Below are positions 3,783 to 59,017 of a stretch of 64,000 nucleotides of DNA, one piece after another. This DNA comes from Antedon mediterranea (taxonomy: Eukaryota > Animalia > Echinodermata). Under the pieces are notes generated by a model, which saw only the letters and a list, made by a program, of their open reading frames with translations, was not told the origin of the DNA and ran no database searches. Numbering within the stretch: the stretch's first letter is position 1; each line of letters starts with the position of its first letter. The position numbers and the translations under genes were made by a program. Location: contig NC_092673.1 of NCBI RefSeq assembly GCF_964355755.1, positions 15,596,948-15,660,947 on the forward strand, read 5' to 3'.

Positions 3783-6700
3783 TTAGATATTAAGTTTGGA
3801 TAGAAGAGAGATCAGATCAGCAATCGGTGGTCGAGTTTTTTTGCATCTCACGGCCAACTCATTAAGTTGCTGCCAATGGCATGCCTGGGCTACGTCACAC
3901 ATAACAAAGCAGAGGGCGAAGATGTCGCTTGATGTTACTTCAGCAGCAGGTGGTTCCACAAGTGGTGATGTTATTCCACCCATGTCAATAATCTTGCCCA
4001 TCCATTCTTCACTTTCATGTGAAAGTAGAATGTTTTCTGCCTTTATGTCATTATGTGCAATTTTGTTCTGGTGGAGAAACTTCACACCATCAGATACTGT
4101 CAATAGAATGTTAAGAATTGACGTCCTGTTTATGTTGACGAATTTACTCTTTATTGCTTTTCTAAGAGTAAGAGATGAACTGTCAACTCCAATAAATGAA
4201 GAGACAATTTGGATGATGTTATTATCATCTCTTACTACGCCAAACATGAACGGAAATGATGGGTGAGCAGAACATAGTTGCATTGTGCGAGCCTCTAGGT
4301 TGATGTTATCTGCACTGCCATTTAAGATGGTTTTGACAGCAACCAATGAGTTGGTCGGAGTGTGTCTCATCAGAGAAACTTCCCCGAAAGCGCCTTGACC
4401 GATGACCACTGGTGTTTTCATCTCGTCGACTGGTTTTAGATCCTTCTGGTTGATCACGTTCACGGTTGGCAGGAGACTCAGTAATACATCTGTCTTGCCT
4501 TTTCCTTGATTTAAATCTGTTGGAGCCGATAGCTGAAATCTATTTTTTTTTTTAAGTAAAGAAGTTATATGATTTACCATTTTGTTTACAGAAATATCAG
4601 ATAATATATTGCCTGCTTATATAATTTGTTAGGCCTACAATAAAAAATAATTATCTGTTAATGAGGAGACTCTTTAATAACACTTGAGGAAGTCGAACAA
4701 TGACATTCTCAGTCTCAGAAGTCAACATCAGAATCCTATTTATAGACTTAATTGTGATGATATCATATAATCCTACCTTTGAACTTCTTCAAACAATTCC
4801 ATAACCTTATTCTCTTCATTCTTTAAAAGTTTCTTGAGATTGTCTAGTTTTCTTTCTTTTTGATCACAATCAACACAGCTAAAAAAATAAACAATACCTG
4901 AAGAATTTGCTTTGAATTAGCTTGCAATTAACGTGTAATTGTTATTATTGTAATTTCCTTTGCATTTTATCTATAGTTTTTTTTCAAACTTAAGCTTATC
5001 ACTATAAATATAATATTTTAAATTCATTAGATCTATTTTGGTTATTATTGTACGGATCCTACACATACCCTTGTTTTCTTGCACTATCTGAACGTTGTTT
5101 ACTCTTTAACATCTTCTTGGCTTCATTCAGTTGTTCCTTTGCTTCCTTATATTTACTTTCATATCTGTTTGAATTATATTTTAATAAGTTATAAGATATA
5201 TTTTTAATTTTTCAAAGACTTTGAGAAAAAGGTGTCAATAATATTGTTGTATTTATGATTATTATTGAATGTTGATAATGAAGACTATGATGAGAAGATG
5301 ATGATGAAATTGTTGGTGTTGAAGATAATCATAATGATAATAGTGGAAACAAGTTGTGATAATAATGATATAATCAATAAATACCAGGTTAGCTTTTTAT
5401 TCAATGGTATCAATTGATTTAGCTAACAAATCCTTTCATGATGGATGTAGTGAATTATCACAACATTGAAAATGGGGTTAGCTTTTTCAATATAAACATT
5501 ATACTTACTTAGTGTTTGTAGCATTAAGTAATTCTGTTCTCTTTTTCAAAACTTTCTTCAACTGCTCATTTTTTTTCTCCAACTCTTCTACAAGCTTTTC
5601 AATTCCTTTCTTCTCTTTGCTCTGTTGGCAATATTTCTCATTCAGCCTGAATTGGCAATTGAACATAATGTTAGATGTGTTGAAAATAGCATTAGCACAG
5701 ATGGTTACTGTAGCTCCTAGTATTTAACTTTTGAATATTTACTTGGCATTTACAGCTTCTAGACATTCTAACTCTTTCTGTAACTCATTTCTTTCATTTC
5801 CAACTTTCTTTATTTCATCACCTTTGTTTTTAAACTCTTCCATCATTCTGAAATGAAAATGTTTGAAGTATTGAAAAATGATATAGGGTTAGCTTAATAA
5901 ATTATTATTGTAGCTCCATTACTATTCAAATAATTATGTTACAAAGATGAACTGATCAATACTTACTTGGCATTTACAGCTTCTAACTCTTTCTTTTCAT
6001 TTCCAACTTTCTTTACTTCATCATCTTTATTTTTCAACTCTTTCATCATTCTGAAATAAACATGTTTGAAGTATTGAAAATGATAGAGGGTGAGCTTAAT
6101 AAATGGCTATTGTAGCTCCATTACTATTCAAATAATTATGTTACAAAGATGAACTGATCAATACTTACTGGGCATTTACAGCTTCCAACTCTTTCTTTTC
6201 ATTTCCAACTTTCTTTACTTCATCATCTTTATTTTTCAACTCTTTCATCATTCTGAAATAGAAATGTTTGAGGTATTGAAAATGATAGAGGGTGAGCTTA
6301 ATAAATGGCTATTGTAGCTCCATTATTATATAAATTTGTTACAAAGGTAAATTGATCAATATTTACTTGGTATTTACAGCTTCTAACTCTTTTTTTTCAT
6401 TTGACAATATCTTTATTTCCTCACTATTGATACTAGAATCTTCCATCATTCTAAAATTAAGATTAAAAAGGTTTGAATGTCTTGGCAAATTATCAAATAA
6501 CAAATAAGGTTAGCTTAATAAATAATTGCAAAAGTTAAGATAAAACTGTTCAATACTTACTTTGTATTTACAGCTTCTAACTCTTTCTGTACTTTTTTCT
6601 TGTCATTTGACAATTTCTTTATTTCCTCCCTACTGTTTCTAGAATCTTTTATCATTCTAAAATTACAATTAACATTTTAGATGTGTTGCATAGGGTTAGC

Positions 6701-9700
6701 TTAATAAACTGTAGCTCCATTAATATTAAACCTAGATACAAAAATAAACACTTCAATAATATTTACATGGCATTTACAGCTTCCAAATCTTTCTTTTCAC
6801 TTAATACTTTGTTTACTTCATCATCTTTGTTTTTCAACTCTTCCATCATTCTGAAATTATAATAAAATGTTCTTAGTGTAGTATTGAAAAATGATATAGG
6901 GTGAACTTAATAAATTGTTATTGTAGCTTCATTACTATTCAAATAAATATGTTACAAAGAACTGATCAATACTTACTTGGCATTTACAGCTTCCAACTCT
7001 TTCTGTAAATCTTTCTTTTCACTTAACAAACTTTTTATTTCATCGTCTTTGTTTTTAAACTCTTCCATCATTCTAAAAAATAAAAATCAACGAAGTGTTG
7101 ACAAATTATCAAATCAAAAATATAGGTTAACTGTAGCTCCATTTTTAGACTCTATAGTTCACTATGTCGGTCGGTTGGTCGGTCTGTCTGTCTGTCGGTC
7201 TGTCTGTCGGTCTGTCGGTCCGGTATCACTATGCGTTTTATCGCTTTCTGACCTTATCTTGATATCAGTTTAATCTAGCTAGGTCAATTTTTCACAGTTT
7301 TTCACGGTGCGCAATAAAAAATTACGCGGTCTACGCAAGATTTAACAAAATCACGTTTGTAATCATATCTTCACAACCATGAATCACAATTAAATAAAAT
7401 TTGGTACTCATAAATTTCAGGGCATAAATCATCATATGGCAATACAATTACGTGCGTAGCGCATGTAACGCATGCGTACGCGCGCTTAAAATTTTCAAAA
7501 GTTATTTTCGATGAAATAAGAGTACGTTTCAGGCAATTTTAATCGTTTACAAAATTGCCATGAGTGCGCATATTTTTGCGCGCGCACTGCGCGTTAAATG
7601 TTATTGCGCACTCTTTTTGCCCGATTTCTGTTTTCTTGACTTACTTTTCAACTTGAAATTACGTTATACGAGCATGTCAAAAGTGACAGGCTACGCACGT
7701 GTAAATTAAAAAAATATAAATGTTTTTAAACATTTCAACATTTTTAAACATGTTCAGTAATTTCGGTCAGTATAGTTCACTATGTCGGTCGGTCTGTCAT
7801 CACTATGCATTGTAGCACACGACTTAATGGCTGTTGGCCTTGTTTTATTTGCATTTCATGGTTGATTGTTTATATAATTATCTATTTTTAATCGGAAATG
7901 TTTATTTACTTTCATTTTCAATCATATTTATGACAAGAAAATGTTGTTTTTAGTCGCGTGGACGCGACTCTATAGCTCACTATGTCGGTCGGTCGGTCTG
8001 TCAGTCGGTCTGTCTACTGTCGGTCCGGTATCACTATGCGTTTTATTGCTTTTCTGTACTTTTTGAACTGTTTTGATGTCAACATGTGGGCATTTACTTG
8101 AAATTGTGGACCTCCTATTGTGAATGAAGTTAGAGTTGCGCAACGTGATCTACGCGCGATTTAACGATTTTCTCGTATTTAACATAGGTCAAAAACCAAA
8201 TAACATTTTAATTGAAACTTTGCAAAAGTTTAATTTATTTCAGGCGCTAACTTTCTGTTGAAAAAAAAATGTGTTTTACACAAAGTTACGCGCGCACGCG
8301 CATTTAAAATTTTAAAATGCGCAAAATTAATTTTTAATCAACTTTCTACCTGTTTTTTGTCATTTTGAGCATGTCAAAAATTCCCATACGAGCGCAAATT
8401 TTTACGCGCGCGGTGCGCACGTAGCGTTAAATACATACTTTTTTCGCGTGATTTGTATTTTTGCAGCCTTTTCTAATAATTTTACCAACTTTTAAAAAAT
8501 TTCGACTTAAAATTACGTCATACGAGCACGTCGAATTGGATAATTTGCGCACGTTTTTGATGAAAAAGTCCAAAAATTCATCAAAATTATGCCTTTTTAG
8601 TAGTGTGGACGCGACTCTATAGTTCACTATGCCGGTCGGTCTGTCTGTCGGTCTGTCTGTCGGTCCGGTATCACTATGCATTGTAGCACGCGACTTAATG
8701 GCTGTTGGCCTTGTTACTATTCAAATTTGTTACAAAGATGAACTTTTCAATATTTACTTGGAATTTACAGCTTCCAACTCTTTCTGTAAATCTTTCTTTT
8801 CATTTCCAACTTTCTTTATTTCCTCATCTTTGTTTGTAAACACTTCCATCATTCTGGCTTTCTTCTCATTTAATACTTTCTTCAGCTCTCCGTTTCTTTT
8901 CTTAAACTCTTTTACTAGCCTTTCACTTGCTTTTTTTCTATAAACATAATAATAATATAAATTGTGTAGATACTTGGGTAAATTTTATTTCTGGTGACCT
9001 ATCTATTAAGGTTCAATATGTCCTAGGAAGCACGTTATTCCATAAAAATAACTCTCACGACATTTATGCTGTATTTGACAGTTATTGTAAAATGTACACA
9101 AGCCGTGCTTGGAAATTAAGAAATGCAATTGTATTACAACTTTGAACTGTTTTATTTTTAAAAAAAGTGTTTTCTTTTCCATTGCTGTTGCAAAATTAGT
9201 AGTTGTATATTAGTGTAGTTTTAGTTTGTAAATAAGTTTTGTAATAGCGTCGAGTCAAATTTTATGTCATTATCTCAAATATGTTTTATTTTCGTTTCAG
9301 TTTTAATTTTCATTGTTTTTGTATTGAATTTTGTAATTGGTATGGACGCACCATCTACGCATGTGTGCCACTGTTAAAAAAGTGTTGTTCCAAATAAATA
9401 TTATTATTATTATTATAAAACATTCAGGTATATAACAATTAACACATTACATTTTGATACTATTATAAAAATAAGGACACAATATTGTATAATATAATTG
9501 TTCCTTTTATCTGTTTTTATTTTGTTCATACTTTTCTCTTAATTTCTCTGCTTCCATTTCAATAGCTTCCATATCGTTTCTCTTAGTTGAAGCACATTCA
9601 ACTTGACACAGGAATGTACTTATGATCTTAAAACAATTATTTAATAAGAAATTGAATTAATATGTGTTAGATAAAATGAAATGTTGTTGAATGAAAGTTA

Positions 9701-10845
9701 ATTAATAGTGATAATAATAATGTGAAACTTGCAAGACAGGTTACATAGGAGTCTTTTCTTACCTTGTTGCCTTCCATTGTCCGCATAAATACCAAATCAC
9801 CTGGATTAACAGTATTTCTTTTTGATGCTGAAAGTGGATCGGCATCTGGTTGGAATGATCCTGTTACTGGCTTCTTCTTCAACAGATTCATTCCTGTTGT
9901 ATGCAGTTGCGGATCAAAGCTACAGTACAAATAGAATAAATCCAGACATTGTTTTATTTGATCAAATTCAAAAAATGTGAAAATAAATTACATGGGCTGA
10001 TATTACTATTAGTAATTTCTATAATCTTAAGTAGGCCTATGGTCTAGCAGAGCCTACTAGATAAATAATAAAAATAACCCAGGGCTATGCTGGTGGGTCA
10101 GGAAAGGCATGTGTAAAAAGAGCAGAAAATAGGCCTAGCTAGGCCCTAGTAGAAGCCCTAATTAATATATAGGCCTATGCTAGGTAGGCCTACCTAGTCC
10201 TAGAGGTAGGCTTAGTACAGCAAACCAGGCAAGGCCTGGGCCTAGTCTAGCTACATACATACAGGCAGTAGGCCTAGGCCTACCTAGGCCATATTCATAC
10301 ATAGGGTAATACTTTTTTATTTAGTTAGGCCTAGGCCCTAGCCTAGTAGGCTAAGCCTGTAATAAACCAAGCCTAGCCTATCTAGAGGCCCTTATTAGCC
10401 ATAGTTAGTTAGGCCTACTACTACAGGCTAGCTAGGCCTTAATTAAGAAGGCTAACCTCTACTAGGGCCTAGCTAGGCCTAGGCTAGGCGCGGCCTAGCT
10501 ATGCTTACCTTACTAGGTCTAGGCTAGGCCTAGGCTAGGCCTAGTTAGGCATAGGCTAGGCCTAGATAGGCTAGGCAGTTAGCCTCATACTAGGCGCTAG
10601 CCTAGGCCTACCTATACTATAGGCCTACTACTAGGCCTAGGGTAGGCTAGGTAGGCCTAGGCTAGGTAGGCCTAGCCTAGTTAGGTCTACCTAGGCCTAG
10701 GCTAGCTAGGCCTACTATTAGGCTACCTAGGCCTAGGCCTAGTACTAGCCTAGTAGGCCTAGAGCTAGAGGCTGGTTTTGGTTAAAAAATCTTACCGTCG
10801 TCGTGAACGACGCCAAAAAGGAAGTAGATTGATGCTAGAATTCAT
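3783..10845 (-). CDS. Multi-exon coiled-coil-repeat + protein kinase gene, copy A (15 coding exons, 735 aa by my model)
   Basis: Hand-built GT-AG model: 10845-10796, 9919-9763, 9626-9532, 8937-8758, 7072-6977, 6850-6767, 6656-6561, 6450-6367, 6252-6169, 6050-5967, 5847-5743, 5646-5509, 5164-5069, 4878-4777, 4539-3783. Total 2208 nt with compatible phases. Last exon has GQGAFG, VAVK, alpha[13 protein letters not shown]. The last acceptor (tag after an A-run) is the weakest site. Confidence 0.8.
5743..8937 (-). repeat. Tandem exon+intron array, copy A (8 repeat exons, ~200-bp unit)
   Basis: Recurring minus-strand (c/t)ag|A ATG ATG GAA...GCT GTA AAT GCC AA|gtaa; introns are also homologous (ttagcttaataaa, tgtagctccatt). 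Confidence 0.9.
7146..8713. mobile_element. Two adjacent Helentron-associated (HINE/DINE-1-like) non-autonomous elements in an intron of copy A
   Basis: Absent from B (ctccattttt|actattcaaa at ~28440) and C. Repeated gactctatagttcactatgtcggtc, (GTCG/GTCT)n microsatellite, hairpin gtcgcgtggacgcgac, shared end gctgttggccttgtt at ~7843 and ~8713, inserted at a T-run. Family assignment is by structural analogy. Confidence 0.65.
10030..10772. repeat. TAGGCCTA/CTAG-rich palindromic low-complexity tract in intron 1 of kinase gene copy A
   Basis: Dense taggccta and ctag motifs between exons 1 and 2. Confidence 0.9.
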
Positions 10846-16360: not shown

Positions 16361-17302
16361 TAATTCAATTTTAATATTAATATCTTACTAGTAGTAGCGT
16401 CATACTGTACACATCGGTCCTGGAAATAATTTCTGGTAACTTGCTTGATTTCCTTACATCTGAAAACAATTCACCTTGCAATAAACACACAGAAAAGAGA
16501 CATTTTTTCTATTTATAAAAGTACATTTATCTTAAATAATCAGAAAATATTTTCTAAATTACAAACACATACAAGCACCAATTAAAATAAATCTAGGTTT
16601 ACTTTTATAGTTATTATTGTTATATGGTTACGTACGTAATCATACCTATGACGATAAATTGATTTTTATCCATCATTGTTTTAGTGTTTATTGTGACAGA
16701 AAAGTTATTAACAGTATATTCTGCTAAGCCAAAAGTTATTCAGATATTTAATATTCTGGCGCATACATTATCATTAAAACAATGGCATGTTGAAGGTCCT
16801 AGTGTCCGCCATACCTTTGTTCCATAATATTCAATTATCATATATTAATATTTAATATCTGATCATGCTGAAAAAACAAAAACAATTACCATGACAATTA
16901 ACTAATATTTGTTAATTGCCTAAATAAATTACAGTAACTGATAATAATATTTCATTTTTCAGAAAAGAGATTGCAAGCCTAATCTACTAAAAACCTTAGA
17001 CACTGACACTAGACACTTACACATGCTATATTGTATGTTACTTCCATTTTCATCTGCTCTAATTTGGTTCAATGGATTGTGTCAGTTATATTTGTTTACA
17101 ACTAGCAAACGTAAATTTCTAGCCCTACTATTATTCGAGTTGAACTATGCGACCGAGAAGGTAAGACGTACACATACGGAGCTCCGCCACAAATATTTTA
17201 TACTTTGCCAACACCAATTACGCCTGGTCATTCTTTTGGATTTCATAAAGTAGTAAGTTATCTTACCTTTAATCACATCATTAACAGTATTTAATCATTA
17301 AA

Positions 17303-18091
17303 ATGAGTACTAGAAAGAGTAAAAAATCGGCCGATCCAACGCCTACAACCGACTCAATTGAAACTGCCGCTACTACAAATGACACGTCAGCACAAATAAA
17401 TGCCCTTCGAAGTGAGCTCCAGAAATTTGCAGCTGATATTAACTCAAAAATTGACAATGGAATTAAATCAATTAAAGATAATCAACAGGTATTGATCAAC
17501 AGAATGGAAGAAATAGAAAATAAACAATCTGTTATGGAAAAATCACTTGAATTTGTTTCGGAAAATACAACTGAAATAAAAACGGAAGTGACTGGACTGG
17601 AGGCTAGCGTCACTTCAATTGAAGCGGAACTGAAAGAAAAGGGTGACAGAATCAGCGTTATGGAAAAGGAATTACTCAAAATGGAAAGATATAGTAGGAG
17701 TTTCAATCTAAGATTTGGAGGCATGCCATCCCAGAAAAGGAAGGAGAAAATCCGATAGATGAAATATCAAATTTAATAGATAATGAACTTGACTTAGCAG
17801 GCGTTACCATTGAAAACGCACACAGAACGGGTAGGCCTAAAACCGGATCGCAAACAACAGTTCCCAGACACATAATAGCGAAATTTCTATACAGACCGCA
17901 AAGGTTCTCTATCCTATCAAAGGCTAAAAAATAAAGAAAAAAAGCTTTTATGTCATGGAAGACCTACCCCTATCTGATGTGAAAAAAAAACATCAACTAA
18001 AGGATGTAATGTCGAAGGCATATCTAGCAGGCAAGCACCCGTCTTTTCGTAACGGCACATTGTATATAGATGGAATGCCTTATCGTGAATA
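17303..18091 (+). pseudogene. LINE ORF1 (coiled coil + RRM-like), frameshifted
   Basis: Heptad-rich region, then ERYSRSFNLRFGG; continues in other frames (IENAHRTG...PRHIIAKF; EDLP...FRNGTLYIDG). Confidence 0.8.
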
Positions 18092-18451
18092 GTCCTAATG
18101 ACGCAATCAGAATGTAACTTGAATAGCTATTCAAGTATTTATTGCACATTGACACGTAGGCCTATTTTATATAATCGTATATTTTACCTCTAGAAGGCCT
18201 AGTAGACGTGTGCATTGCGTTTTTTTATGTACATATACGAGAACCATTATGTTATGTTGGACCATCATGGACCTGATTATTTGGCGGAGCAAAGAAGCAA
18301 AGAAATTGACTATTTATTTATAATACTTACTTTGTAATGAACTTGCATATATGTATTCATATTTTTATTAATTATGTATGTATATTTATTTATTTATGTT
18401 TTATTTATTTTACTTATCTTTTTGCGTCATGTACATTATATATAATATTAA

Positions 18452-21400
18452 TTGTTCAACTGTATAATGATTGATAGTGTAACTTCGAATCTACCTAACT
18501 TTAATCCGTTAACTCACAACCTTGATAATTTTGATGAGCAGTCAGCAGATTTAATCGACCAATTAAACTCGAGATCAACTACTCTTGATAACTGCTCATA
18601 TTATGATTGTGACAAGTTTAATTCAACCTTCACAAATGATTCCAATACTAGCCTTTCCCTTTTTCATCTGAACATTAGAAGTATTAAAACTAAAGTAGAC
18701 CCACTCATACGTCTGTTAGACAATTTAAGCATTGATTTCTCAATAGTAGGTCTCTCAGAGACATGGCTACATGATAACTCGCCAACTCCCTCCTTACATA
18801 ACTATACTTTTTTCTCTAAAAATAGGTCAACTAGAATTGGTGGTGGTGTTGCTTTATTTGTTCATAATGATATAAATGTTAAAATCAGACATGACATCTT
18901 GCTTCCTCTGCCTTATGAATCTCTATTCATTGAGCTTAGTAACCATAACAAAAAATCTACTGTTGTCGGTATAATATACCGTCCACCTGGAAGTTGTATT
19001 GACCATTTTTCTGAATCACTAGACAGTGTTCTAAGTAAAATTGATTCTGAAAATAAGAAGTGTCACATTATGGGGGATATAAATATTGATCTAATTAAAT
19101 ATCATAATCATCCCAGCACTGGAAATTATCTTGATCTACTTCTTTCACATTCTTTTTATCCCACTATATCGAAACCTACCAGAATAACTACAACAACTGC
19201 CTCTCTAATTGATCACTTTTATACCAACCAAACTCATTCTAATATTTCCTCAGGTGTTCTTATTACAGATATTTCTGACCATCTTCCCATTTTTCAACTT
19301 ATTCATGATGACCAATGCCATTATAACAAGCCTACTGATAGACAGTCGCCCCGCATACAGGATGTTAATGCCTTTTGTAATGACATCATAAACGAAGATT
19401 GGTCTGAAGTTTATAACGCCACACCTAATCTCGCTTTTGACACATTTTTATTAAAATTCTATAATATACATGATAAACATACCACCTATAAATCTGTACC
19501 CAAAACTAAAATGTCTAAACAACCATGGATGTCGCCTGGTCTTAGAAAATGTAGTCAAAAAAAGCAAAAATTATACAAAAAATTTATTTTATCACAAGAT
19601 CCTAATCGCAAACTAACATACACAAAATATAACAATATGTTTAATAAGCTTTGCCGCACTGCAAAAAAGAATTATTTTTCTTTACAATTTGACACGGTCA
19701 AAGGCAATCTTAAAAAAACCTGGTCCATTACTAATTCTGTTTTATCCCCTAATAAGTCAAGTCGAAACTATCCCAAACAACTTACAATAAATGACAATAC
19801 CATTACATCTGAAATAGATATTTGTAATCAATTTAATAAATATTTTTCTCAAATTGGCACTTCACTTAAAAATGCAATGCCGGATTCCTTAATTAATCCA
19901 AAATCATATCTTCCTGATCCCCTTCTCCATTCTTTCTTTATAAATCCTGTAACTGAACATGAAGTGATGATAATTATAAATGATCTTGATCCAAAGAAAG
20001 GAGGTGGCGATGATAGAGTTACACCATACGTTATTAAATTGATTTCTCCATTCATTATTAATCACCTTACGTTCTGTATTAATTCATCTTTTTCTTCAGG
20101 TAGTTTTCCCAATTATTTAAAGTTAGCAAAAGTTATTCCAATTTTCAAGAAAGGTAGACAAGATATACTTTCAAATTACAGACCCATTTCACTACTTAGT
20201 ACCTTTTCCAAAATCATTGAAAAATTAATGTACTCCCGTCTCTATGAGTTCCTGGATTGCAATAACGTACTCTTTGCTCATCAATATGGTTTTCGTAAAT
20301 CTCATTCCACTTCACATGCAATCCTTGATCTCATAAATAATGTAACAAACTCCTTTGAAAAAAGACAATTTTTGTTATCTGTCTTTGTCGACTTATCCAA
20401 GGCCTTCGATATTATAGATCACCGTATACTTATTAATAAACTTAACAATTATGGAATCAGGGGTATTACCTTAAACTGGTTTCGTAGTTACTTAAGTATG
20501 AGGAAGCAATATGTCTCGTTTGGTAATTGTATGTCACCAGAGGAGGAGATGACATGTGGGGTGCCACAAGGGTCGGTTCTTGGCCCTCTCCTTTTTTTAA
20601 TTTACGTAAATGACTTATCCAGAGTCAGTGACACCCTCCATGTCATCTCCTTTGCTGATGACACTACTCTATTTTTTTCTCATTCAGATTTAAAAGTTTT
20701 ATTTTCTATAGTTAATAATGAATTGTCAAAATATAATGACTGGTTCATCTCAAATAAACTCCTTATAAACTCCATGAAAACCAATTACATTCTTTTTCAT
20801 ACACAACGTCAATCGTTAGACCTTACTGATTACAATATATTTATTAATGGAGATAACATTAAACAAACGTCAGAGACTATGTTCCTTGGTGTTTTAATCC
20901 AGGAAAACTTGAGATGGACCAGTCATCAGAATCATATTGCAAATAAAATTTCTAAAACAATTGGGATTATAAATAATCTTAAGCACACTTTTCCCCGGCG
21001 TATCCTTCTTTCATTATATAATTCTTTAATTTTACCTCATCTTTATTATTGTAACATTATTTGGGCTGCTGACTATTCATCACATCTCGATAAACTTTAA
21101 TAAGCTGATTAAGCGTGCTATTAGAAATATTACTTGTACGTCTCGCATTACTCCATCTGAACCTTTATTTTATGAACTTAAGTTACTGAAGTTAGGTGAT
21201 ATACATAAATTGCAAAGTGCCTCTTTTGTCTTTCAATATTTTTCTAACAATCTTCCTTCTCCCATGATGAATTTATTTAACACTGCTGATTTCAACCATG
21301 GTCATAATTTAAGAAGTACTGTTCATAAGTTTCAGTTAACTATTCCTTTTGTAAGATTAACTAGTTCTTCTCACTTTATTTATGTTTCTGGCCCTTTAAT

Positions 21401-21497
21401 TTGGAATCAATTAGATACTAGTATTGTTAACTCTTCCTCTCTCCCAACTTTTCGTAAAAAACTTAAAAGTAATTTGTTATCATTGTACTCAAACTAG
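18452..21497 (+). pseudogene. LINE ORF2: APE endonuclease + reverse transcriptase, 1-bp frameshift near 21097
   Basis: HLNIRS, LSETW, YRPP, MGDIN, IDH, SDHLP; YRPISLL, QYGFR, DLSKAFD, GVPQGSVLGP, FADD; C-terminus continues in ORF 21210-21497. Confidence 0.93.
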
Positions 21498-25052: not shown

Positions 25053-28000
25053 TCAGATATTAAGTTTGGATAGAAGAGAGATGAGATCAGCAATCGGTGG
25101 TCGAGTTTTCTTGCATCTCACGGCCAACTCATTAAGTTGCTGCCAATGGCATGCCTGGGCTACGTCACACATAACAAAGCAGAGGGCGAAGATGTCGCTT
25201 GATGTTACTTCAGCAGCAGGTGGTTCCACAAGGGGTGATGTTATTCCACCCATGTCAATAATCTTGCCCATCCATTCTTCACTTTCATGTGAAAGTAGAA
25301 TGTTTTCTGCCTTTATGTCATTATGTGCCATTTTGTTCTGGTGGAGAAACTTCACACCATCACATACTGTCAATAGAATGTTAAGAATTGACCTCCTGTT
25401 TATGTTGGCGAATTTACTCTTTATTGCTTTTCTAAGAGTAAGAGATGAACTGTCAACTCCAATAAATGAAGAGACAATTTGGATGATGTTATTATCATCT
25501 CTTACTACGCCAAACATGAACGGAAATGATGGGTGAGCAGAACATAGTTGCATTGTGCGAGCCTCTAGGTTGATGTTATCTGCACTGCCATTTAAGATGG
25601 TTTTTACAGCAACCAATGAGTTGGTCGGAGTGTGCCTCATCAGAGAAACTTCCCCGAAAGCGCCTTGACCGATAACCACTGGTGTTTTCATCTCGTCAAC
25701 TGGTTTTAGATCCTTCTGGTTGATCACGTTCACGGTTGGCAGAAGACTCAGTAATACATCTGTCTTGTCTTTTCCTTGGTTTAAATCTGTTTGAGCCGAT
25801 AGCTGAAATCTATTTTTTAAGTAAAGAAGTTATATGATTTACCATTTTGTTTACAGAAATATCAGATAATATATTGCCTGCTTATATAATTTGTTAGGCC
25901 TACAATAAAAAATAATTATCTGTTAATGAGGAGACTCTTTAATAACACTTGAGGAAGTCGTACAATGACATTCTCAGTCTCAGAAGTCAACATCAGAATC
26001 CTATTTATAGACCTTATTGTGATGATATAAGACAATCCTACCTTTGAACTTCTTCAAACAATTCCATAACCTTATTCTCTTCATTCTTTAAAAGTTTCTT
26101 GAGATTGTCTAGTTCTCTTTCTTTTTGATCGCAATCAACACAGCTAAAAAAATATAAACAATACCTGAATAATTTGCTTTGAATTAGCTTGTAATTAACG
26201 TGTAATTGTTATTATTGTAATTTCCTTTGCATTTTATATATAGTTTTTTTTTTCAAACTTAAGCTTATCATTATAAATATAATATTTTAAATTCATTAGA
26301 TCTATTTTGGTTATTATTGTACGGACCATACACATACCCTTGTTTTCTTGCACTATCTGAACGTTGTTTACTCTTTAACATCTTCTTGGCTTCATTCAGT
26401 TGTTCCTTTGCTTCCTTATATTTACTTTCATATCTGTTTGAATTATATTTTAATAAGTTATAAGATATATTTTTAATTTTTCAAAGACTTTGAGAAAAAG
26501 GTGTCAACAATATTGTTGTATTTATGATTATTATTGAATGTTGATAATAAAGACTATGATGAGAAGATGATGATGAAATTGTTGAAGATAATCATAACGA
26601 TGATAATAGTGGAAACAAGTTGTGATAATAATGATATAATCAATAAATACCAGGTTAGCTTTTTATTCAATGGTATCAATTGATTTAGCTAACAAATCCT
26701 TTCATGATGGATGTAGTGAATTATCACAGCATTGAAAATGGGGTTAGCTTTTTCAATATAAACATTATACTTACTTAGTGTTTGTAGCATTAAGTACTTC
26801 TGTTCTTTTTTTCAAAACTTTCTTCAACTGCTCATTTTTTTTCTCTAACTCTTCTACAAGCTTTTCAATTTCTTTCTTCTCTTTGCTCTGTTGGCAATAT
26901 TTCTCATTCAGACTGAATTGGAAATTGAACATAATGTTAGAAGTGTTGAAAATAGCTTTAGCTTAATTGATCGTTACTGTAGCTCCTAGTATTTAACTTT
27001 TAAATATTTACTTGGCATTTACAACTTCAAGACATTCAAACTCTTTCTGTAAATCTTTCATTTCATTTGAAATTTTCTTTACTTCTTCCATCATTCTGAA
27101 ATTATGATAAAAATGTTTTTAAAAATTATCTAATAACAATGATAGGTTAATAAATAACTGTAAAAGTTGTTACAGATCAAACTGTTAAAATATTTACTTG
27201 GCATTTACAGCTTCTAGACATTCAAACTCTTTCTGCAAATCTTTCCTTTCACTTAACACTTTCTTTACTTCATCATCTTTGTTTTTAAGCTCTTCCATCA
27301 TTCTGAATTAAAAATAAAAATGTGTGAATGTGTTTAAAAATTATCAAATAACAAATAGGGTTAGCTTAACAAGTAACTGTAAGTGTAAAAGATAAAAATG
27401 TTCAATACTTACTTGGCATTTACAGCTTTTAACTCTTTCTGTAGTTCCTTCTTTTCATTTGACAATTTCTTTATTTCCTTACTATTGTTTTTAGAATCTT
27501 CCATCATTCTGAAATTAAGATAACAATGTTGGTGTTGCAATATTATCAAATAAAAAATATGGTTAGCCTAATCAACTGTAGCTCCATTACAATTATACCT
27601 AGATACAAAAGTAAAAATGTCAATATTTACTTGGCATTTACAGCTTCTAGACATTCTAACTCTTTCTGTAACTCTTTCCTTTCATTTCCAACTTTCTTTA
27701 TTTCATCACTTTTGTTTTTAAACTCTTCCATCATTCTGAAATGAAAATGTTTGAAGTGTTGAAAAATGATATAGGGTTAGCTTAATAAATTATTATTGTA
27801 GCTCCATTACTATTCAAATAATTATGTTACAAAGATGAACTGATCAATACTTACTGGGCATTTACAGCTTCCAACTCTTTCTTTTCATTTCCAACTTTCT
27901 TTACTTCATCATCTTTATTTTTTAACTCTTCCATCATTCTGAAATAAAAATGTTTGAGGTATTGAAAATGATAGAGGGTGAGCTTAATAAATGGTTATTG

Positions 28001-29669
28001 TAGCTACATTATTATTTAAATTTGTTACAAAGGTAAATTGATCAATGCTTACTTGGTATTTACAGCTTCTAACTCTTTCTGTACTTCTTTCTTTTCATTT
28101 GACAACTTCTTTTTTTCCTCACTATTGTTTCTAGAATCTTCCATCATTCTGAAATTAAGATTAACATTTTAGATATGTTGCAATGTTATCAAACAAAGGG
28201 TTAGCTTAATCAACTGTAGCTCCATTAATTTACACTTAGATACAAAAATAAACATTTTAATAATATTTACTTGGCATTTAGAGCTTCCAACTCTTTCTGT
28301 AAATCTTTCTTTTCACTTAACAAACTTTTTATTTCATCGTCTTTGTTTTTAAACTCTTCAATCATTCTAAAAAATAAAAATCAACGAAGTGTTCACAAAT
28401 TATCAAATCAAAAATATAGGTTAACTGTAGCTCCATTTTTACTATTCAAATTTGTTACAAAGATGAACTTTTCAATATTTACTTGGAATTTACAGCTTCC
28501 AACTCTTTCTGTAAATCTTTATTTTCATTTCCAACTTTCTTTATTTCCTCATCTTTGTTTGTAAACACTTCCATCATTCTGGCTTTCTTCTCATTTAATA
28601 CTTTCTTCAGCTCTCCGTTTCTTTTCTTAAACTCTTTTACTAGCCTTTCACTTGCTTTTTTTCTATAAACATAATAATAATATAAAACATTCAGGTATAT
28701 AACAATTAATACATTACATTTTGATACTATTATAAAAATAAGGACACAATATTGTATAATATAATTGTTCCTTTTAGCTGTTTTTATTTTGTTCATACTT
28801 TTCTCTTAATTTCTCTGCTTCCATTTCAATAGCTTCCATATCGTTTCTCTTAGTTGAAGCACATTCAACTTGACACAGGAATGTACTTATGATCTTAAAA
28901 CAATTATTTAATAAGAAATTGAATTACTATTTGTTAGATAAAATGAAATGTTGTTGAATGAAAGTTAATTAATAGTGATAATAATAATGTGAAACTTGCA
29001 AGACGTGTTAGGAGTCTTTTCCTACCTTGTTGTCTTCCATTGTCCGCATAAATACCAAATCACCTGGATTAACAGTATTTCTTTTTGATGCTGAAAGTGG
29101 ATCGGCATCTGGTTGGAATGATCCAGTTACTGGCTTCTTCTTCAACAGATTCATTCCTGTTGTATGCAGTTGTGGATCAAAGCTACAGTACAAATAGAAC
29201 AAATCCAGACATTGTTTTATTTGATCAAATTCAACAAATTTGAAAATAAATTACATGGGCTTATATTACTATTAATAATTACTATAATCTTAAGTAGGCC
29301 TATGGCCTAGCAGAGCCTACTACATAAATAATAACCCAGGGCTATACTGGTGGGTCAGGAAAGGCATGTGTAAAAAGAGCATAATATAGGCCTAGCTAGG
29401 CCCTAGTAGTAGCCCTAATTAATATCTAGGCCTAGGCTAGGTAGGTTTAGTACAGCAAACCAGGCCAGGCCTGGGCCTAGTCTAGCTACATACAGGCCTA
29501 CCTATACTATAGGCCTACTACTAGGCCTAGGGTAGGCTAGGTAGGTAGGCCTAGCCTAGTTAGGCCTAGGCTAGGCTAGGCCTACTAGCTAGAGGCTGGT
29601 TTTGGTTAAAAAATCTTACCGTCGTCGTGAACGACGCCAAAAAGGAAGTAGATTGATGCTAGAATTCAT
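25053..29669 (-). CDS. Coiled-coil-repeat + protein kinase gene, copy B (chimeric C-left/A-right; 8 repeat exons)
   Basis: Same exon set as A. Repeat exons 27012-27095, 27198-27302, 27413-27508, 27631-27735, 27855-27938, 28053-28148, 28271-28366, 28483-28662 are all multiples of 3; kinase ORF is intact. Confidence 0.78.
29290..29598. repeat. TAGGCCTA-rich tract in intron 1 of copy B (shortened version of the copy A tract)
   Basis: Collinear with 10030-10772 but with large deletions. Confidence 0.85.
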
Positions 29670-34050: not shown

Positions 34051-34643
34051 ATATATTTTCGTTATATTATAAACCAAAATAAGTCTGAAATGGTGGAAAT
34101 CTAAAAATTGAGTCGGGTAAATCAATCCAGAACCCCAAAAACAATCGCTTTTAACATGAAATGCCTACAGCATATGAAAATCTGGACTAGTATATTATTG
34201 CCAAAAGAGGATTTATTTGCTTTGCCTATTTTTTTTGCAAACAACTTGATGATAGGTGGCGCCATTGGTTTGTTTTAGAGTAGCAGCATTATATTGACAG
34301 TGACTATAGAGTAACCAATCACCATAACATTTAGAGTCATCCTCAGTCTAGTCATATAAAAAGTTGCACACACATTAGAAGTTTTCTGGAACAAAATAAA
34401 AAAATAATTCAATTTTAATATTAATATCTTACTAGTAGTAGCGTCATACTGTACACATCGGTCCTGGAAATAATTTCTGGTAACTTTCTTGATTTCCTTA
34501 CATCTGAAAACAATTCACCTTGCAATAAACACACAGAAAAGAGACATTTTTTCTATTTATAAAAGTACATTTATCTTAAATAATCAGAAAATATTTTCTA
34601 AATTACAAACACATACAAGCACCAATTAAAATAAATCTAGGTT

Positions 34644-35313
34644 TGTTAACTTTGAAATGTATAATGTCGCCCTCTATTTCATGTTTGGGGAGCAAGAGGG
34701 CAGACTTGCTCAGAGTTGTGCTTTGGGCAAGGATAGTTCATAGCCTAGATAAATACACTGATAGTTAAAAATATGTACTGTAATCTATAGGTTCTGGTGA
34801 AGAAACAGATGTAAGTTTATGAGGCTTTATATTTAGATAATATAATCTTTTGTATCATTTAACTGTAGCCTACTAGATAATTACAAATTACTGACTCAAT
34901 TATACTATAATCTAGGCCTAGGCCTAGGCTAGGCCTACTGTTAAATTGAAGTAATGATGGTAATACAGTAATGATGAATCGATCATTTTCTATAAATCTA
35001 GTTTAATATGATTGTTGAGCTATTTAGCTTAGATGTTCCAATTGTTATACCAATTGATTATTTAATTACAATGACGGCTTTAATTATCCATTAATTTACA
35101 GTTTAAACCGTTCGATCTATCGTTCGTTCCACTGCTGTGTGTTCGTTCAACATCTATCCATTGTGTGCTCAACCAATTTGTTCGACCATTCAACCAATTT
35201 GTCAAATCGTTCGTTTCATTGCCGTGTTGAATAAACATTATTTATATCTATACCTTTGTGAACGCGTTTAATTCGTTTTGACTCCCAGAACCGCACGTGA
35301 CGTCAAGGTTATA
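34644..35313 (+). repeat. 5' LTR
   Basis: tgttaactttg...caaggttata; no difference from the 3' LTR seen by eye. Confidence 0.93.
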
Positions 35314-35356
35314 TAAGTTTAAAATCTCTCTTCTACTGCAATAATCTATCTCTAAG

Positions 35357-38300
35357 ATGTTTGACGTTGAACCAAGTGATTCAGTGAGTTGCGTAAGCTC
35401 CAAACGCTCATCATCGAGCAGCAGATCTAGGATCCGGGTTAAGGCTGAAGCTGCAGCATTAAGGGAACGAGCTGCCAGACAGAAAGAAATGCATGACTTG
35501 GAAATGCAGGAATTGGTGCTCAAACAAAAGAAGGCTGATGTGGAATTGCAAATTGAAATCGGGGCAATTGAAGCAGCCGACAAAGTTTACAACGAAGCTG
35601 AACAGGACGAGGATGAGGCAGTAGATCGTGAACTCGAAGATCTTTCTCTACCAAAGCTTCAAATTGAAACAACCACTCCCAAACTTCCATCAGGAAATCT
35701 GCCCGACCAACGATTTTCTCCTGATTATCGATCAGAATATGTTCCAAAGGAGGAGACAGAACTGTTAGGGAATCCTATGCTGTGGCAGCGTACACCTCAA
35801 CCAGCAGTGTTCCAACCATTTAATCTGGATGCTCCTGTATTCCACCAACACAAGCAGATCGATGCCATAGATAGACTGGCATCCACAATGATGAGAGCAC
35901 AAGATAAGCAAAATGAAGCATTGAGACAGATCGTCCAACAACAGCAACAAAGTGTTACTGCGCTTACCTTGCCTAACCCGTCAATGAAGTTATACAGTGG
36001 CAATCCTGCTGAATACTGCGAGTTTGTCACTTCATTCAAACATCTTGTTGAGAACAAAACTGTGAGCCAGAGTGCAAGACTGCACTACTTGGTACAGTAC
36101 ACGACTGGGGCTGTACAAGAGTTGATGAGAAGCTGTCTATCGATGAGTGATGATAAAGGATATGTTGAGGCGAGACGCTTGCTAAAGGAAAGATATGGAC
36201 AAGCATACAAGATAGCTGCTGCCCACGTTCAACTCTTGCTGGATTGGCCGATTATCAAAGTCGAGGATGGCATAGCTCTACAACGCTTCTCTACTCAACT
36301 AACAAGCTGTGCAAATACACTTCAGGAAATTGGATACCTTAGCAAGCTAGATAATCCAGACAATCTTCGGAAAATCATTGAACGTCTTCCGTATCGACTA
36401 AGGCTAAGATGGCGGGAAGTGGTTGACACTATCATCGTAAAGGAAAAGAGAGATGTGAATATTAAGGATATTACCAAGTTTGTCACCGATAAGGCTAGGG
36501 TAGCAACTCATCCAGTCTTTGGTAAAATAGAGCCAGTGAAGTCTACCAATTCTCCAAATTTGGATAAATTATCGACCAACCACAAATCTAGCAGTTATGC
36601 CGTTCACAATTCTCAGTCAAACACACCTGTAACATCACAACCAACGTGTCCGCTATGCTGTGAGGACCATTGGCTCTCCAGATGTGAGCAGTTCCGACGG
36701 AAGTCACTCAACGACCGATGGAAATGTGTAAATGACAAGAAAATCTGTATCAACTGTCTTACAGTTGGACATTTTGTGAAAGATTGTCAAAAGCAAAGTT
36801 TCTGCAAAATATCCGGATGCACGAAGAAACACTCAACATATTTACATCCCAAAGGTGAGACTGCAAGTAATGCTGGTACTGTTGCTGTACAACCAGTTCA
36901 GACGTCTCCAGCAACCTTCAGTGGTGAACAGGTCAACATGTCGGCATCGAGAAGCACATCAACCGTTACTGGTCTTGCTGCTGTACCTGTGAGAGTCAAG
37001 GCTCCAGGAAGTGCCAAGCTTGTAGAAACCTATGCATTTCTGGATAATGGATCCAACACAACTTTCTGCACCACTGGTCTACTAAAGCAATTAGGGATAT
37101 CATCGAATACTGTAGACTTATCATTGACAACCATGAACGGAGTAAATAGACCAATCCAGTGTGAACTTACAAAGTTGGAGATTTTGGATTTAAACCATGG
37201 ACATTCCGTCTTACTTCCAAACGTCTATTCAGTGCAAACCCTACCAATTTCTACCGATACGATCGCTACTCCAGATGACATCAACAAATGGCCTCACCTA
37301 GCTGGGATTAAAGTAGATAAAATAAATGCAGATATTGGTATTCTCATTGGAAGTGATGTGCCAGAATTGCTACAACCGCTGGAAGTACGCGCATGCCACG
37401 ATGGTGGTCCATTTGCCACTAGAACACTATTTGGCTGGGTTGTCAACGGCCCATTGGGAAGGAAGAACTCTGGATCAACACACTGCGCTAACTACATTGA
37501 TTCACATGAAGAGTTGTCAACACAGTTCAAGGACTACTATAATCTAGAATTCAATGACAGCCTGTACAACCCTGCAGATGAAGCATCAAGAGGTATGACA
37601 GTAAATGAATTATTGATCAATCAACGTTGGAAAGAAGGTCCAGAATTCCTAAAGCAACCTGAGAGGACATGGCCACAAAGACCAGCAAACTTGGGTGAAA
37701 TCCCACAAGATGACCCAGAGGTAAAGGCAAAATCCACAGTCTGTGCTACTGGTATAAATGTAATTGACTCGATTTCATCAGTCATTAACTACTACTCATC
37801 ATGGGAGAAGTTGAAGAAGTCGTTTGCATGGATTTTGAGGTACAAAGAAAAGTTACGAGAAGTGGTTCGCAGGCGTAAGGCTGGAGACGATGTTTCATTT
37901 AATAGAAATGACACAGTTGATCCAATCAATGTTTTGGAGATGAAAGGTGCTGAAATTGCTATCACGAAGCATGTACAGAAATGCTTTGAAGACGAGCAAG
38001 TTTGCTTGAAGCATGTAAGCCTATCTCAACCCTGCAATACCAAAAAGCAACGAGCACTACCAAAATCCAGCAAGATCTACAAACTCGATCCCATCTTAAG
38101 TGAGGGAGTGATCAGAGTAGGGGGCCGTCTTCAAAATTCACCTATCAACGGTGACATGAAACATCAGATAATCCTACCAAAGAATCACCACATAGTGAAG
38201 CTCATTACTACATACTATCACCATTTATCAGGACACAGTGGACTAGAATACACACTGTCCCTAGTTCGACAGAAGTTCTGGCCGATTGATGCACGTACTG

Positions 38301-39310: not shown

Positions 39311-39475
39311 TTGGAAATATGAACTTTTGAACATTACAGATTGTTCTTCTTCGTTTTATAAGATCCAATTTTGGAATTTATCTTTTCCTTATAAATTTTA
39401 ACTATATTAGGTTTTTTGTTGACATGTTTATTTTTATGTAAAGGCTATCCATACGGTGCCTTTAAGGGGCCGGAA

Positions 39476-40145
39476 TGTTAACTTTGAAATGTATAATGTC
39501 GCCCTCTATTTCATGTTTGGGGAGCAAGAGGGCAGACTTGCTCAGAGTTGTGCTTTGGGCAAGGATAGTTCATAGCCTAGATAAATACACTGATAGTTAA
39601 AAATATGTACTGTAATCTATAGGTTCTGGTGAAGAAACAGATGTAAGTTTATGAGGCTTTATATTTAGATAATATAATCTTTTGTATCATTTAACTGTAG
39701 CCTACTAGATAATTACAAATTACTGACTCAATTATACTATAATCTAGGCCTAGGCCTAGGCTAGGCCTACTGTTAAATTGAAGTAATGATGGTAATACAG
39801 TAATGATGAATCGATCATTTTCTATAAATCTAGTTTAATATGATTGTTGAGCTATTTAGCTTAGATGTTCCAATTGTTATACCAATTGATTATTTAATTA
39901 CAATGACGGCTTTAATTATCCATTAATTTACAGTTTAAACCGTTCGATCTATCGTTCGTTCCACTGCTGTGTGTTCGTTCAACATCTATCCATTGTGTGC
40001 TCAACCAATTTGTTCGACCATTCAACCAATTTGTCAAATCGTTCGTTTCATTGCCGTGTTGAATAAACATTATTTATATCTATACCTTTGTGAACGCGTT
40101 TAATTCGTTTTGACTCCCAGAACCGCACGTGACGTCAAGGTTATA
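39476..40145 (+). repeat. 3' LTR
   Basis: Direct repeat of 34644-35313. Confidence 0.93.
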
Positions 40146-40823
40146 AGGTTTACTGTTATAGTTATTATTGTTATATGGTTACGTACGTAATTATACCTAT
40201 GACGATAAATTGATTTGTATCCGTCATTGTTTTACTGTTTATTGTGTCTGACAGAAAATTTATTAACAGTATATTCTGCTAAGCCAAAAGTTATTCAGAT
40301 ATTTAATATTCTGGCGCATACATTATCATTAAAACAATGGCATGTTGAAGGTCCTAGTGTCCGCAATACCTTTGTACCATAATATACAATTATCATATAT
40401 TAATATTTAATTTCTGATCATGCTGAAAAGACAAAAACAATTACCATGACAATCAACTAATATTTGTTAATTGCCTAAATAAATTACAGTAACTGATAAT
40501 AATATTTCATTTTTCAGAAAAGAGATTGCAAGCCTAATCTACTAAAAACATTAGACACTGACACTAGACACTTACACATGCTATATTGTATGTTACTTCC
40601 ATTTTCATCTGCTCTAATTTGGTTCAATGGATTGTGTCAGTTATATTTGTTTACAACTAGCAAACGTAAATTTCTAGCCCTATTATTATTCTTATACTTA
40701 AAAAACGAACATTTATTTTTATAAAGGATAGGTGGAACTTAAACAAAAGACAATACAACATTTGTAAATGATTTGTACAAAATAAAACAATTTAAAAAAA
40801 TTAAACACACAGCGTGGCTATTG

Positions 40824-58398: not shown

Positions 58399-59017
58399 TA
58401 TTCTGTTAGTAGCAGTAAGTAACTGAATAAAATCAATTCTAAACTGAATATTAATTGATTCAAGTAATTGTTGTTATATTTTTGTGAGCGCAACATCTGG
58501 CCTATTAAATCTAAACTAGGCTTTGCCTGTGGTAATAGTGTACTATTGGTATTCAGATTTATACATTTAATATTGTACGCCAAAAGCTTTTTAATTAGGT
58601 TTAGGATTAAAACAATACCAGGAACAGTGATAACAGTTGGTACTTAATTTTAAAATGTGCATCACAAAAGTCAATACTGTATTCATTATAATTAATATTA
58701 ATGTCTGTAGCTAAATATAGGGTAATAATAACATAGTGCAAGGCAACAAGGCACGCAGGCAAGTCCAAAATTTATGAGATGCATCTACAAAAAATGCGAG
58801 GCATTTCACAATAAGTGTACTGTGAGGCAGAGGCAACATATTGTTTGTACTACCTAGCAGGATTACACCAATTATTATTATAATATCAAAAATGATTAAA
58901 TTATTTTCGACATAGGCCTCTAAGGTTAGGGCTATGTGACAGAATGACAAAAATCATAGTAAAAATATTAAACAACATGATGAGTTTATACATGAATCTC
59001 TTTAGATATAGCCTGTA

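What the first reader, a model, noticed from the sequence alone, without database searches (positions are those of the whole stretch)
3783..10845. Unannotated coiled-coil-rod + kinase gene whose rod is built from modular symmetric exons
Seen: 15 GT-AG exons join into one 735-aa frame. The middle is a tandem array of exon+intron units, each exon encoding a variant of [20 protein letters not shown](DLQK)ELE(CLE)AVNAK. Every repeat exon measured in A and B is phase 2-2 and a multiple of 3, so units can be duplicated, lost or skipped without a frameshift. Copies A, B and C carry 8, 8 and 10 units in different combinations. Inference: a kinase on a length-tunable coiled-coil spacer, varied by recombination and possibly by alternative splicing. 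I do not recognise this architecture as a named family.
Basis: partly seen in the sequence, partly recalled or inferred. Interest (0 to 1): 0.85.

Follow-up and report, generated by a model that had tools for sequence, protein, structure and literature searches.

The report
Feather-star loopless kinase on modular rod
Three tandem feather-star genes join a predicted coiled-coil rod, built from 8 to 10 interchangeable exons, to a kinase that keeps its catalytic residues but has lost the loop that normally docks substrates, so it likely finds its targets by being tethered next to them rather than by recognising their sequence.

Summary
In detail: 15 GT-AG exons give a 735-aa frame; copies A/B/C carry 8/8/10 phase-2 units. 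'Unannotated' is wrong: RefSeq lists all three as uncharacterized Antedon mediterranea proteins, with two more paralogues and an Anneissia relative. An RNA-like run supports 5 of 14 junctions. Units are 28, 32 or 35 residues, all compatible with coiled-coil register, and three hybrid units point to unequal crossover inside exons. Regulated exon skipping is unproven, because RefSeq's skip isoforms can be paralogue cross-mapping. Best reading: a likely dimeric, always-on kinase head on a tether whose length drifts; rival: ATPase or pseudokinase switch. Rod length varies too much for a ROCK-type precise ruler. The scan had no look-alike of this sequence, but noted exon-cassette arrays in other genes of this genome. 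New variant of known kinds.

The parts
10796..10845 (-). Copy A exon 1 (ATG; Arg-rich 17-aa peptide), phase 0-2
   Evidence: same N-terminus in the RefSeq paralogue P0005; no RNA joint seen
9763..9919 (-). Copy A exon 2, N-terminal region of no known family
   Evidence: matches P0005 and P0010
9532..9626 (-). Copy A exon 3 (95 nt, phase 0-2); short motif shared with Anneissia, start of rod; left out in 3 RefSeq isoforms, which would end the exon-1 frame at 73 aa
8758..8937 (-). Copy A exon 4: 28-aa head plus unit A1 (32 aa)
7150..8711 (.). High-copy repeat insertions in intron 4, absent from copies B and C
   Evidence: summed depth 1e4-1e6
5743..7072 (-). Copy A exons 5-11 = units A2-A8 (32, 28, 32, 28, 28, 28, 35 aa) with 96-126-nt introns: 7072-6977, 6850-6767, 6656-6561, 6450-6367, 6252-6169, 6050-5967, 5847-5743
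   Evidence: junctions 5-6, 6-7, 7-8 in one 377-nt contig of run X1
5509..5646 (-). Copy A exon 12, coiled coil (46 aa)
   Evidence: joint to exon 13 in X1, short side 21 nt
5069..5164 (-). Copy A exon 13, coiled coil (32 aa), conserved in Anneissia
4777..4878 (-). Copy A exon 14: CxxC motif (conserved in Anneissia) and last coiled-coil segment
   Evidence: joint to exon 15 in X1
3783..4539 (-). Copy A exon 15: whole kinase domain. G-loop 4400-4383, VAVK 4343-4332, alphaC Glu near 4295, HNDIKAEN 4055-4032, DMG 3986-3978, activation-segment deletion point near 3965, alphaF Asp near 3926, subdomain-XI Arg near 3833
25053..29669 (-). Copy B, intact, 15 exons, 8 units (28662-27012), 746 aa
44014..49368 (-). 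Copy C, intact, 17 exons, 10 units (48059-46003), 801 aa
3482..49844 (.). Head-to-tail tandem duplication, period about 19 kb apart from transposon insertions; the A-to-B and B-to-C junctions are homologous (16361-17136 matches 34405-34644 plus 40146-40691)

Best explanation
These are intact, spliced paralogous genes for a likely parallel coiled-coil dimer, predicted to be about 60-70 nm long, that carries at its C-terminal end a kinase which keeps every catalytic residue but lacks the P+1 loop and APE motif, and so likely works without activation-loop control and phosphorylates only what the rod and N-terminus hold next to it (the partner chain or a docked protein). Shown: gene structure, open frames, 5 of 14 junctions, the deletion, its conservation in two feather-star genera, purifying selection on the kinase, hybrid units. 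Inferred: dimer, ATP use, phosphotransfer, N-terminal anchoring. Rod length changes by unequal crossover inside the near-identical exons, which keeps frame and coil register automatically; length looks tolerated rather than tuned. The kinase likely descends from an intronless invertebrate clade that may travel in DNA transposons (inferred).
For: Kinase exon dN/dS 0.20, 0.33, 0.20 (Fisher p 0.002, 0.034, 0.001). G-loop, Lys, alphaC Glu, catalytic Asp and Asn and DxG Asp are kept, as in the 65-row alignment. Model pLDDT 90, pTM 0.88, TK/TKL fold, Z 22, rmsd 2.5, 208 aligned. DxG-Asp to alphaF-Asp distance is 20 in 4 of 4 crinoid rows against 35-51 in 58 of 58 other clade rows; the APE column is E or D in 57 of 58 and P or Q in the crinoid rows; a second 4-residue deletion lies in the alphaH-alphaI loop. 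An X1 contig crosses the deletion point with no gap (3919-4040). Human PRPK lacks the activation loop yet autophosphorylates (PMC7864929, passages). Rod has no proline, hydrophobic period 3.52 above all 1000 shuffles in each copy, with Met/Leu/Val/Ile plus Lys and Asn at a/d; Lys and Asn at core positions favouring dimers is recalled. Hybrid units A8, B2, B3 have upstream and downstream introns from different C units (2 and 0; 1 and 6; 6 and 5 mismatches against 15-28 for the other parent).
Against: No biochemical data; loss of the P+1 loop may abolish protein phosphorylation. No function or known domain for the N-terminal 110 residues, so the anchor is assumed. Nine of 14 junctions, including all of exons 1-4, have no RNA joint; two X1 contigs keep 40 and 51 nt of intron at their 5' ends. 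Three RefSeq isoforms leave out exon 3, which breaks the exon-1 frame. Unit lengths may reflect slippage between short internal repeats as much as selection, and one unit of a paralogue is 31 aa. The window itself shows no transposon partner gene or ends around the kinase.
Confidence: 0.45

Rival explanations
1. The kinase fold is an ATPase or nucleotide-binding switch, as Bud32/PRPK and Rio2 are within their complexes, or a pseudokinase scaffold; the rod transmits the conformational change or just oligomerises it.
For: The peptide-docking P+1 loop, APE and alphaG are all missing. PRPK and Rio2, which lack the activation loop, have ATPase activity (PMC7864929, passages). The shortened segment is nearly invariant between Antedon and Anneissia while the domain overall is about 60% identical, as for a binding surface.
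Against: All catalytic residues are kept; the fold is TK/TKL-like and no Bud32 or RIO chain is among the 50 rows shown; PRPK itself still autophosphorylates.
Confidence: 0.25
2. One reading: a ROCK-like molecular ruler whose reach is tuned by unit number and by regulated exon skipping.
For: One unit is 4-5 nm, and a 5-nm truncation abolishes ROCK2 function in cells (PMC4686654, passages). Any unit can be skipped in frame. One X1 contig joins a B5-like donor to a B8-like acceptor, an order present in none of the three copies.
Against: ROCK rod length is conserved to about 3.5 nm across orthologues; here it is about 59, 61, 69 nm in paralogues 96-98% identical, 63 nm in P0005 and 44 nm in Anneissia. 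RefSeq skip isoforms can be cross-mapping; X1 is another sample, so a deletion haplotype is possible. No membrane-binding domain found.
Confidence: 0.12
3. A fast-evolving innate-immune sensor or decoy: the variable rod is bait for pathogen proteins and the non-RD kinase signals.
For: Non-RD kinases are linked to pathogen recognition in plants (PMC4654520, passages). Tandem copy-number change and exon shuffling resemble Ectocarpus ROCO and chicken BG genes. Unit positions 4-17 have pN/pS 1.18 and e/g positions 2.2 (non-independent pairs, few silent sites). Unchecked notes report cassette-built candidate receptors further along this chromosome.
Against: Overall unit pN 0.153 is below pS 0.176 and intron distance 0.177; exposed b/c/f positions 0.82; distinct-variant ratio 0.58. 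No hypervariable face, no homogenised introns, no recognition domain. Non-RD is a trait of nearly the whole clade (56 of 58).
Confidence: 0.13
4. A decaying transposon-derived gene whose array is neutral satellite-like expansion.
For: Clade members lie beside transposase-like genes; unit exons are only weakly constrained in sequence.
Against: Five intact Antedon paralogue models, a relative in Anneissia, spliced RNA, dN/dS well below 1 in the kinase, no stop or frameshift in 26 of 26 units.
Confidence: 0.05

Closest known systems
Unnamed invertebrate non-RD, short-C-lobe kinase clade (e.g. Antedon XP_071953871, Lytechinus XP_041468079, Strongylocentrotus LOC100890470, Lingula XP_013401651, Acropora XP_015765500 cluster)
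   Same: C-terminal kinase with HND catalytic loop, no alphaG, often a coiled coil upstream (14 of 71 single-domain non-RD hits by a crude scan); one side of a branch at SH-aLRT 100 in a quick tree of 83 rows, sister row XP_071953871 at 97.
   Different: Only the crinoid subfamily lacks the P+1 loop and APE Glu, and only Antedon has the 7-10-unit exon array. The 2006 sea urchin kinome paper was not held; from recall it names an urchin-specific family that may be this clade.
PRPK/TP53RK-Bud32 and Rio2 (PMC7864929, passages)
   Same: Activation loop absent, C-lobe reduced, K/E/D/D intact.
   Different: Ancient single-copy atypical kinases; here the loss is a recent, separate deletion in a TK/TKL-like fold that keeps alphaH and alphaI, and it sits on a long rod.
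ROCK1/2 (PMC4686654, passages)
   Same: Kinase at the end of a long coiled coil; activity not gated by activation-loop phosphorylation in ROCK2, inferred here.
   Different: ROCK is an AGC kinase at the N-terminus with PH-C1 at the C-terminus and a conserved 107-nm rod; here the kinase is C-terminal, unrelated, and the rod length varies.
Chicken BG proteins (PMC4046983, PMC5938342, passages)
   Same: Coiled coil encoded by many small symmetric exons of variable number, tandem gene expansion, hybrids from recombination, intron read-through to in-frame stops (here all 26 unit donors read TAA if the intron is kept).
   Different: BG exons are 21 nt, on an Ig-V transmembrane protein with no kinase; here 84-105 nt on a soluble kinase.
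[quoted passage not shown]
   Same: One repeat per exon with recombination between paralogues (ROCO); mosaic repeats in clustered echinoderm genes (SpTrf).
   Different: Those repeats are ligand-binding and, for ROCO, under diversifying selection; no such signature here, and no inverted or dead units.

Membership tests
Eukaryotic protein kinase superfamily (TK/TKL-like fold) | Pfam Pkinase above cut-off and kinase fold | tested here: met
   76.5 bits against cut-off 31.7; Z 22 to TNNI3K and FES, tied
Eukaryotic protein kinase superfamily (TK/TKL-like fold) | Catalytic K/E/D/N/D and G-loop | tested here: met
Eukaryotic protein kinase superfamily (TK/TKL-like fold) | Activation segment with P+1 loop and APE motif | tested here: not met
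   20 residues against 35-51; APE Glu absent
Eukaryotic protein kinase superfamily (TK/TKL-like fold) | Protein phosphorylation | not testable with these tools
   needs an assay
Invertebrate non-RD short-C-lobe clade (no name found) | Non-RD loop, alphaF-to-Arg spacing about 35, tree placement | tested here: met
   HND; spacing 33; inside the 62-row side of the branch, quick tree only
Bud32/PRPK/RIO | No activation loop | tested here: met
   by separate loss
Bud32/PRPK/RIO | Family sequence profile | tested here: not met
   no RIO1 hit at E up to 1; Kdo only 13.9 bits against 21.3; nearest sequences are the non-RD clade
Bud32/PRPK/RIO | Closest fold neighbour | tested here: inconclusive
   not among the 50 rows shown
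ROCK/MRCK/DMPK/citron | N-terminal AGC kinase with C-terminal PH-C1 or CNH domains | tested here: not met
   kinase is C-terminal; no other Pfam domain in P0005 or P0007 at E up to 1e-5
ROCK/MRCK/DMPK/citron | Rod length conserved across orthologues | tested here: not met
   about 44-69 nm
ROCK/MRCK/DMPK/citron | Parallel coiled-coil dimer | tested here: inconclusive
   period 3.52 and heptad register; oligomer state not modelled
Exon-shuffling immune receptors (ROCO, NB-ARC-TPR type) | One repeat per symmetric exon, recombined between paralogues | tested here: met
Exon-shuffling immune receptors (ROCO, NB-ARC-TPR type) | Diversifying selection on a binding face | tested here: not met
   pN 0.153, pS 0.176, introns 0.177; b/c/f 0.82; crude counts, no codon model
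Exon-shuffling immune receptors (ROCO, NB-ARC-TPR type) | Immune expression or induction | not testable with these tools
   only contigs of one RNA-like run were available
Gene inside a DNA transposon | Transposase or partner gene and element ends around the kinase | tested here: not met
   window matches 34 loci only in the kinase; flanking long ORFs are retroelement pieces

The most novel reading that the evidence does not exclude
Feather stars have turned a transposon-borne kinase into a new kind of enzyme: by deleting the substrate-docking loop and mounting the head on an exon-accordion coiled coil, they made a kinase or ATPase whose targets are set purely by reach, with paralogues, alleles and skipped isoforms giving a graded set of 4-5-nm length steps.
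Probability: 0.12. Interest if true: 0.8.

Novelty: new variant of a known kind. Interest (0 to 1): 0.52.

Why it matters
A recent, clean deletion of the P+1/APE segment in a typical kinase fold, kept under selection, has a close intact sister in the same genome (XP_071953871). The pair makes it directly testable what the activation segment contributes and how a kinase becomes an ATPase or pseudokinase, which PRPK and Rio2 are too ancient to show. The rod is a natural length series in coil register for testing tether versus ruler models. The surrounding clade looks large, widespread in marine invertebrates and partly mobile, and I found no description of it in the held library.

Tried and rejected
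No whole genome is held, so copy number outside the window rests on RefSeq proteins. No run is on record as RNA; X1 is a guess, supported only by its splice-site joints, and X2-X4 cover introns like DNA. Exons 2-3 have no cover in X1: no evidence either way. The 7 joints seen only in X2 could be paralogues or haplotypes and were not used. Search for near-length homologues of the kinase exon: 0 of 592 candidates. N-terminal 115 residues: only itself among 102 candidates; Atlas scores 0.82 or lower, leads only. First fold with 6 rows failed (pLDDT 47). Viral origin: 32 viral loci at E 5e-9 or weaker and generic fold matches at 13-24% identity; the top Atlas feature hit for P0007 was a giant-virus kinase cluster at 0.94, not followed up. 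The careful tree did not finish; support values are from the quick tree. Mitochondrial-presequence reading of exon 1: amphipathic and Arg-rich but not conserved in the Anneissia model; left as a weak lead. Paper searches that gave no description of this gene or clade: (listings only; PMC3212892 searched for 'kinase', 0 hits). The 2006 sea urchin kinome paper and Dardick and Ronald 2006 were not found by DOI. No supplements were read.
Full report
Observation. I rebuilt the three gene models from splice-site motifs. B gives 746 aa in 15 exons and C 801 aa in 17. Units number 8, 8 and 10. All 26 unit exons are phase 2-2, multiples of three and open; only 8 of the 26 introns after them are multiples of three. 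The copies lie head to tail in a duplication of about 19 kb broken by retroelements.

Annotation and expression. The kinase exon matches RefSeq 'uncharacterized protein' models of Antedon mediterranea at 100, 98 and 96% (A, B, C), two further paralogues at 88 and 87%, and an Anneissia japonica protein at 61%: 6 hits among 2938 candidates. I laid runs on A (4 of 5 runs) and on B (2 of 5). Of 13 joints listed on B, 6 come only from X1 and 7 only from X2. The X1 joints fall at splice sites: exon 12-13 (short side 21 nt), exon 14-15 (net 232 nt removed, one differing letter), and four unit-to-unit joints. Three of these belong to one 377-nt contig whose pieces add up as 136+84+96+61, the order of A's exons 5 to 8; that assignment is my arithmetic. 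So 5 of A's 14 junctions are supported; exons 1-4 are not.

Skipping. RefSeq's A isoform that omits exon 10 has a junction identical over 40 nt each side to C's native 9|10 junction; the B isoforms' 4-to-8 junction equals A's native 4|5 over 25 nt but differs at 5 of 80 positions over 40 nt. Both may be cross-mapping. One X1 contig joins a B5-like donor to a B8-like acceptor, an order absent from all three copies; B5 and B7 differ at 10 of their last 85 nt. That is either true skipping of two units or a shorter haplotype. Omission of exon 3 in three RefSeq isoforms cannot be mimicked by a paralogue and ends the exon-1 frame at 73 aa.

The rod. Units are 28 (10), 32 (11) or 35 (5) residues: four heptads, four heptads plus a four-residue stutter (term and tolerance recalled), and five heptads. 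The two outside paralogues use mostly 32 and 35, with one 31 among 13 units parsed. The rods are 399, 410 and 466 aa, have no proline and a hydrophobic period of 3.52 stronger than all 1000 shuffles, about 59, 61 and 69 nm. Three units are hybrids whose upstream intron matches one C unit and downstream intron a later one (A8: C7 then C10; B2: C2 then C3; B3: C4 then C5), and A6/A7 are near duplicates. Crossovers inside the exons explain the counts (10-3+1 and 10-2) and keep frame and register without any special machinery. Unit sequence is weakly constrained: pN 0.153, pS 0.176, intron distance 0.177. The Anneissia rod is about 300 aa with only two loosely similar repeats, so the array is an Antedon-lineage expansion.

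The kinase. A profile of six crinoid domains gave 11,215 hits at E up to 0.001; of the 148 other proteins listed, 71 are single-domain non-RD kinases. Named members come from sea urchins, sea stars, a brachiopod, corals and Antedon itself (20 looked up). In a quick tree of 83 domains, 62 rows (4 crinoid, 47 chosen hits, 11 loci) stand against 21 conventional kinases at SH-aLRT 100, and the crinoid rows pair with Antedon XP_071953871 at 97; I chose the rows, so this shows placement, not the clade's full extent. The clade has a short alphaF-to-subdomain-XI stretch (33-42 residues in 57 of 58), that is no alphaG. The crinoid subfamily has in addition lost about 26 residues after DxG: 20 residues to the alphaF Asp against 35-51 in 58 of 58, with no APE Glu, and four residues before the subdomain-XI Arg. 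Both Antedon and Anneissia share this, the catalytic residues are intact, and dN/dS among A, B and C is 0.20-0.33. With 65 rows the model is confident (pLDDT 90) and TK/TKL-like. In the human kinome alignment a few kinases lack alphaG (PMC6930252, passages); PRPK and Rio2 lack the activation loop and have both autophosphorylation and ATPase activity (PMC7864929, passages).

Origin. A metagenome scan returned 80 loci; I listed ORFs in 21. The kinases there are mostly single long ORFs, several in multi-copy 3-4-kb blocks about 85% identical. Of 21 neighbouring ORFs scanned, 11 had no Pfam hit and 3 passed cut-offs: a CACTA-type transposase (L054), a Ulp1 protease (L052) and a second kinase. L042 has TTAA-flanked short inverted ends around a transposase-like ORF and the kinase; reading this as Kolobok-like is recalled, and it is one of 5 loci examined. 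The whole crinoid kinase sits in one exon, which fits capture of such a gene, but the window shows no element around it. A transposon origin is a lead, not a result.

Mechanism and verdict. I commit, at 0.45, to a dimeric, unregulated kinase head that reaches its targets through the rod, with length tolerated rather than tuned; ATPase or pseudokinase switch 0.25; immune sensor 0.13; tuned ruler 0.12; relic 0.05. ROCK2 shows that a rod can set kinase reach and that 5 nm matters (PMC4686654, passages), but its length is conserved and this one is not. Chicken BG tails and brown-algal ROCO genes are precedents for exon-built variable repeats, which I reached through earlier notes of the scan. Each ingredient has a precedent; the combination, and the recent loop deletion with an intact sister gene, I did not find described, with the caveat that the 2006 sea urchin kinome paper was not held. 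New variant of a known kind; interest 0.52.

Noticed in passing
window 34644-40152: BEL/Pao-type LTR element with LTRs 99.7% identical and one 1321-aa ORF (gag-like, integrase, DUF5641) that has no reverse transcriptase or RNase H hit: young and likely non-autonomous; inserted in the B-to-C junction.
   Followed up: partly
window 55693-58473, minus strand: Exons of a glycosyltransferase family 7 gene (PF13733, PF02709), likely B4GALT7-like (recalled).
   Followed up: no
window 17285-21494, plus strand: LINE-type element: coiled-coil ORF and an 882-aa endonuclease plus reverse transcriptase ORF, between copies A and B.
   Followed up: no
L042:349-7285: TTAA-flanked short inverted ends enclosing a transposase-like ORF without Pfam hit and a non-RD kinase: candidate kinase-carrying DNA transposon.
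   Followed up: partly
L054:1433-5001: Non-RD kinase tail to tail with a CACTA-type transposase (PF02992 above cut-off, DUF4218 below).
   Followed up: partly
L037, L040, L043, L047, L048, L049, L052, L053: Non-RD kinase next to an ORF of no known family, often with a weak C2H2-finger hit, in multi-copy blocks; L052 adds a Ulp1 protease: possible undescribed mobile element.
   Followed up: partly
window 5743-8937, 27012-28662, 46003-48059: All 26 unit donors read an in-frame TAA if the intron is kept, and nearly every unit starts with one or two Met codons; retention would give a kinase-less rod.
   Followed up: partly
window 4860-4878: CxxC motif at a break in the rod, conserved in all Antedon paralogues checked and in Anneissia; could bind zinc across a dimer (inference).
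   Followed up: no
window 10030-10770, 29300-29600, 48690-49310: Intron 1 of each copy is filled with degenerate TAGGCC-type repeats, far more diverged between copies than the other introns.
   Followed up: no
P0015 (Lingula XP_013401651): A clade member with three tandem kinase domains behind a hydrophobic N-terminus.
   Followed up: no
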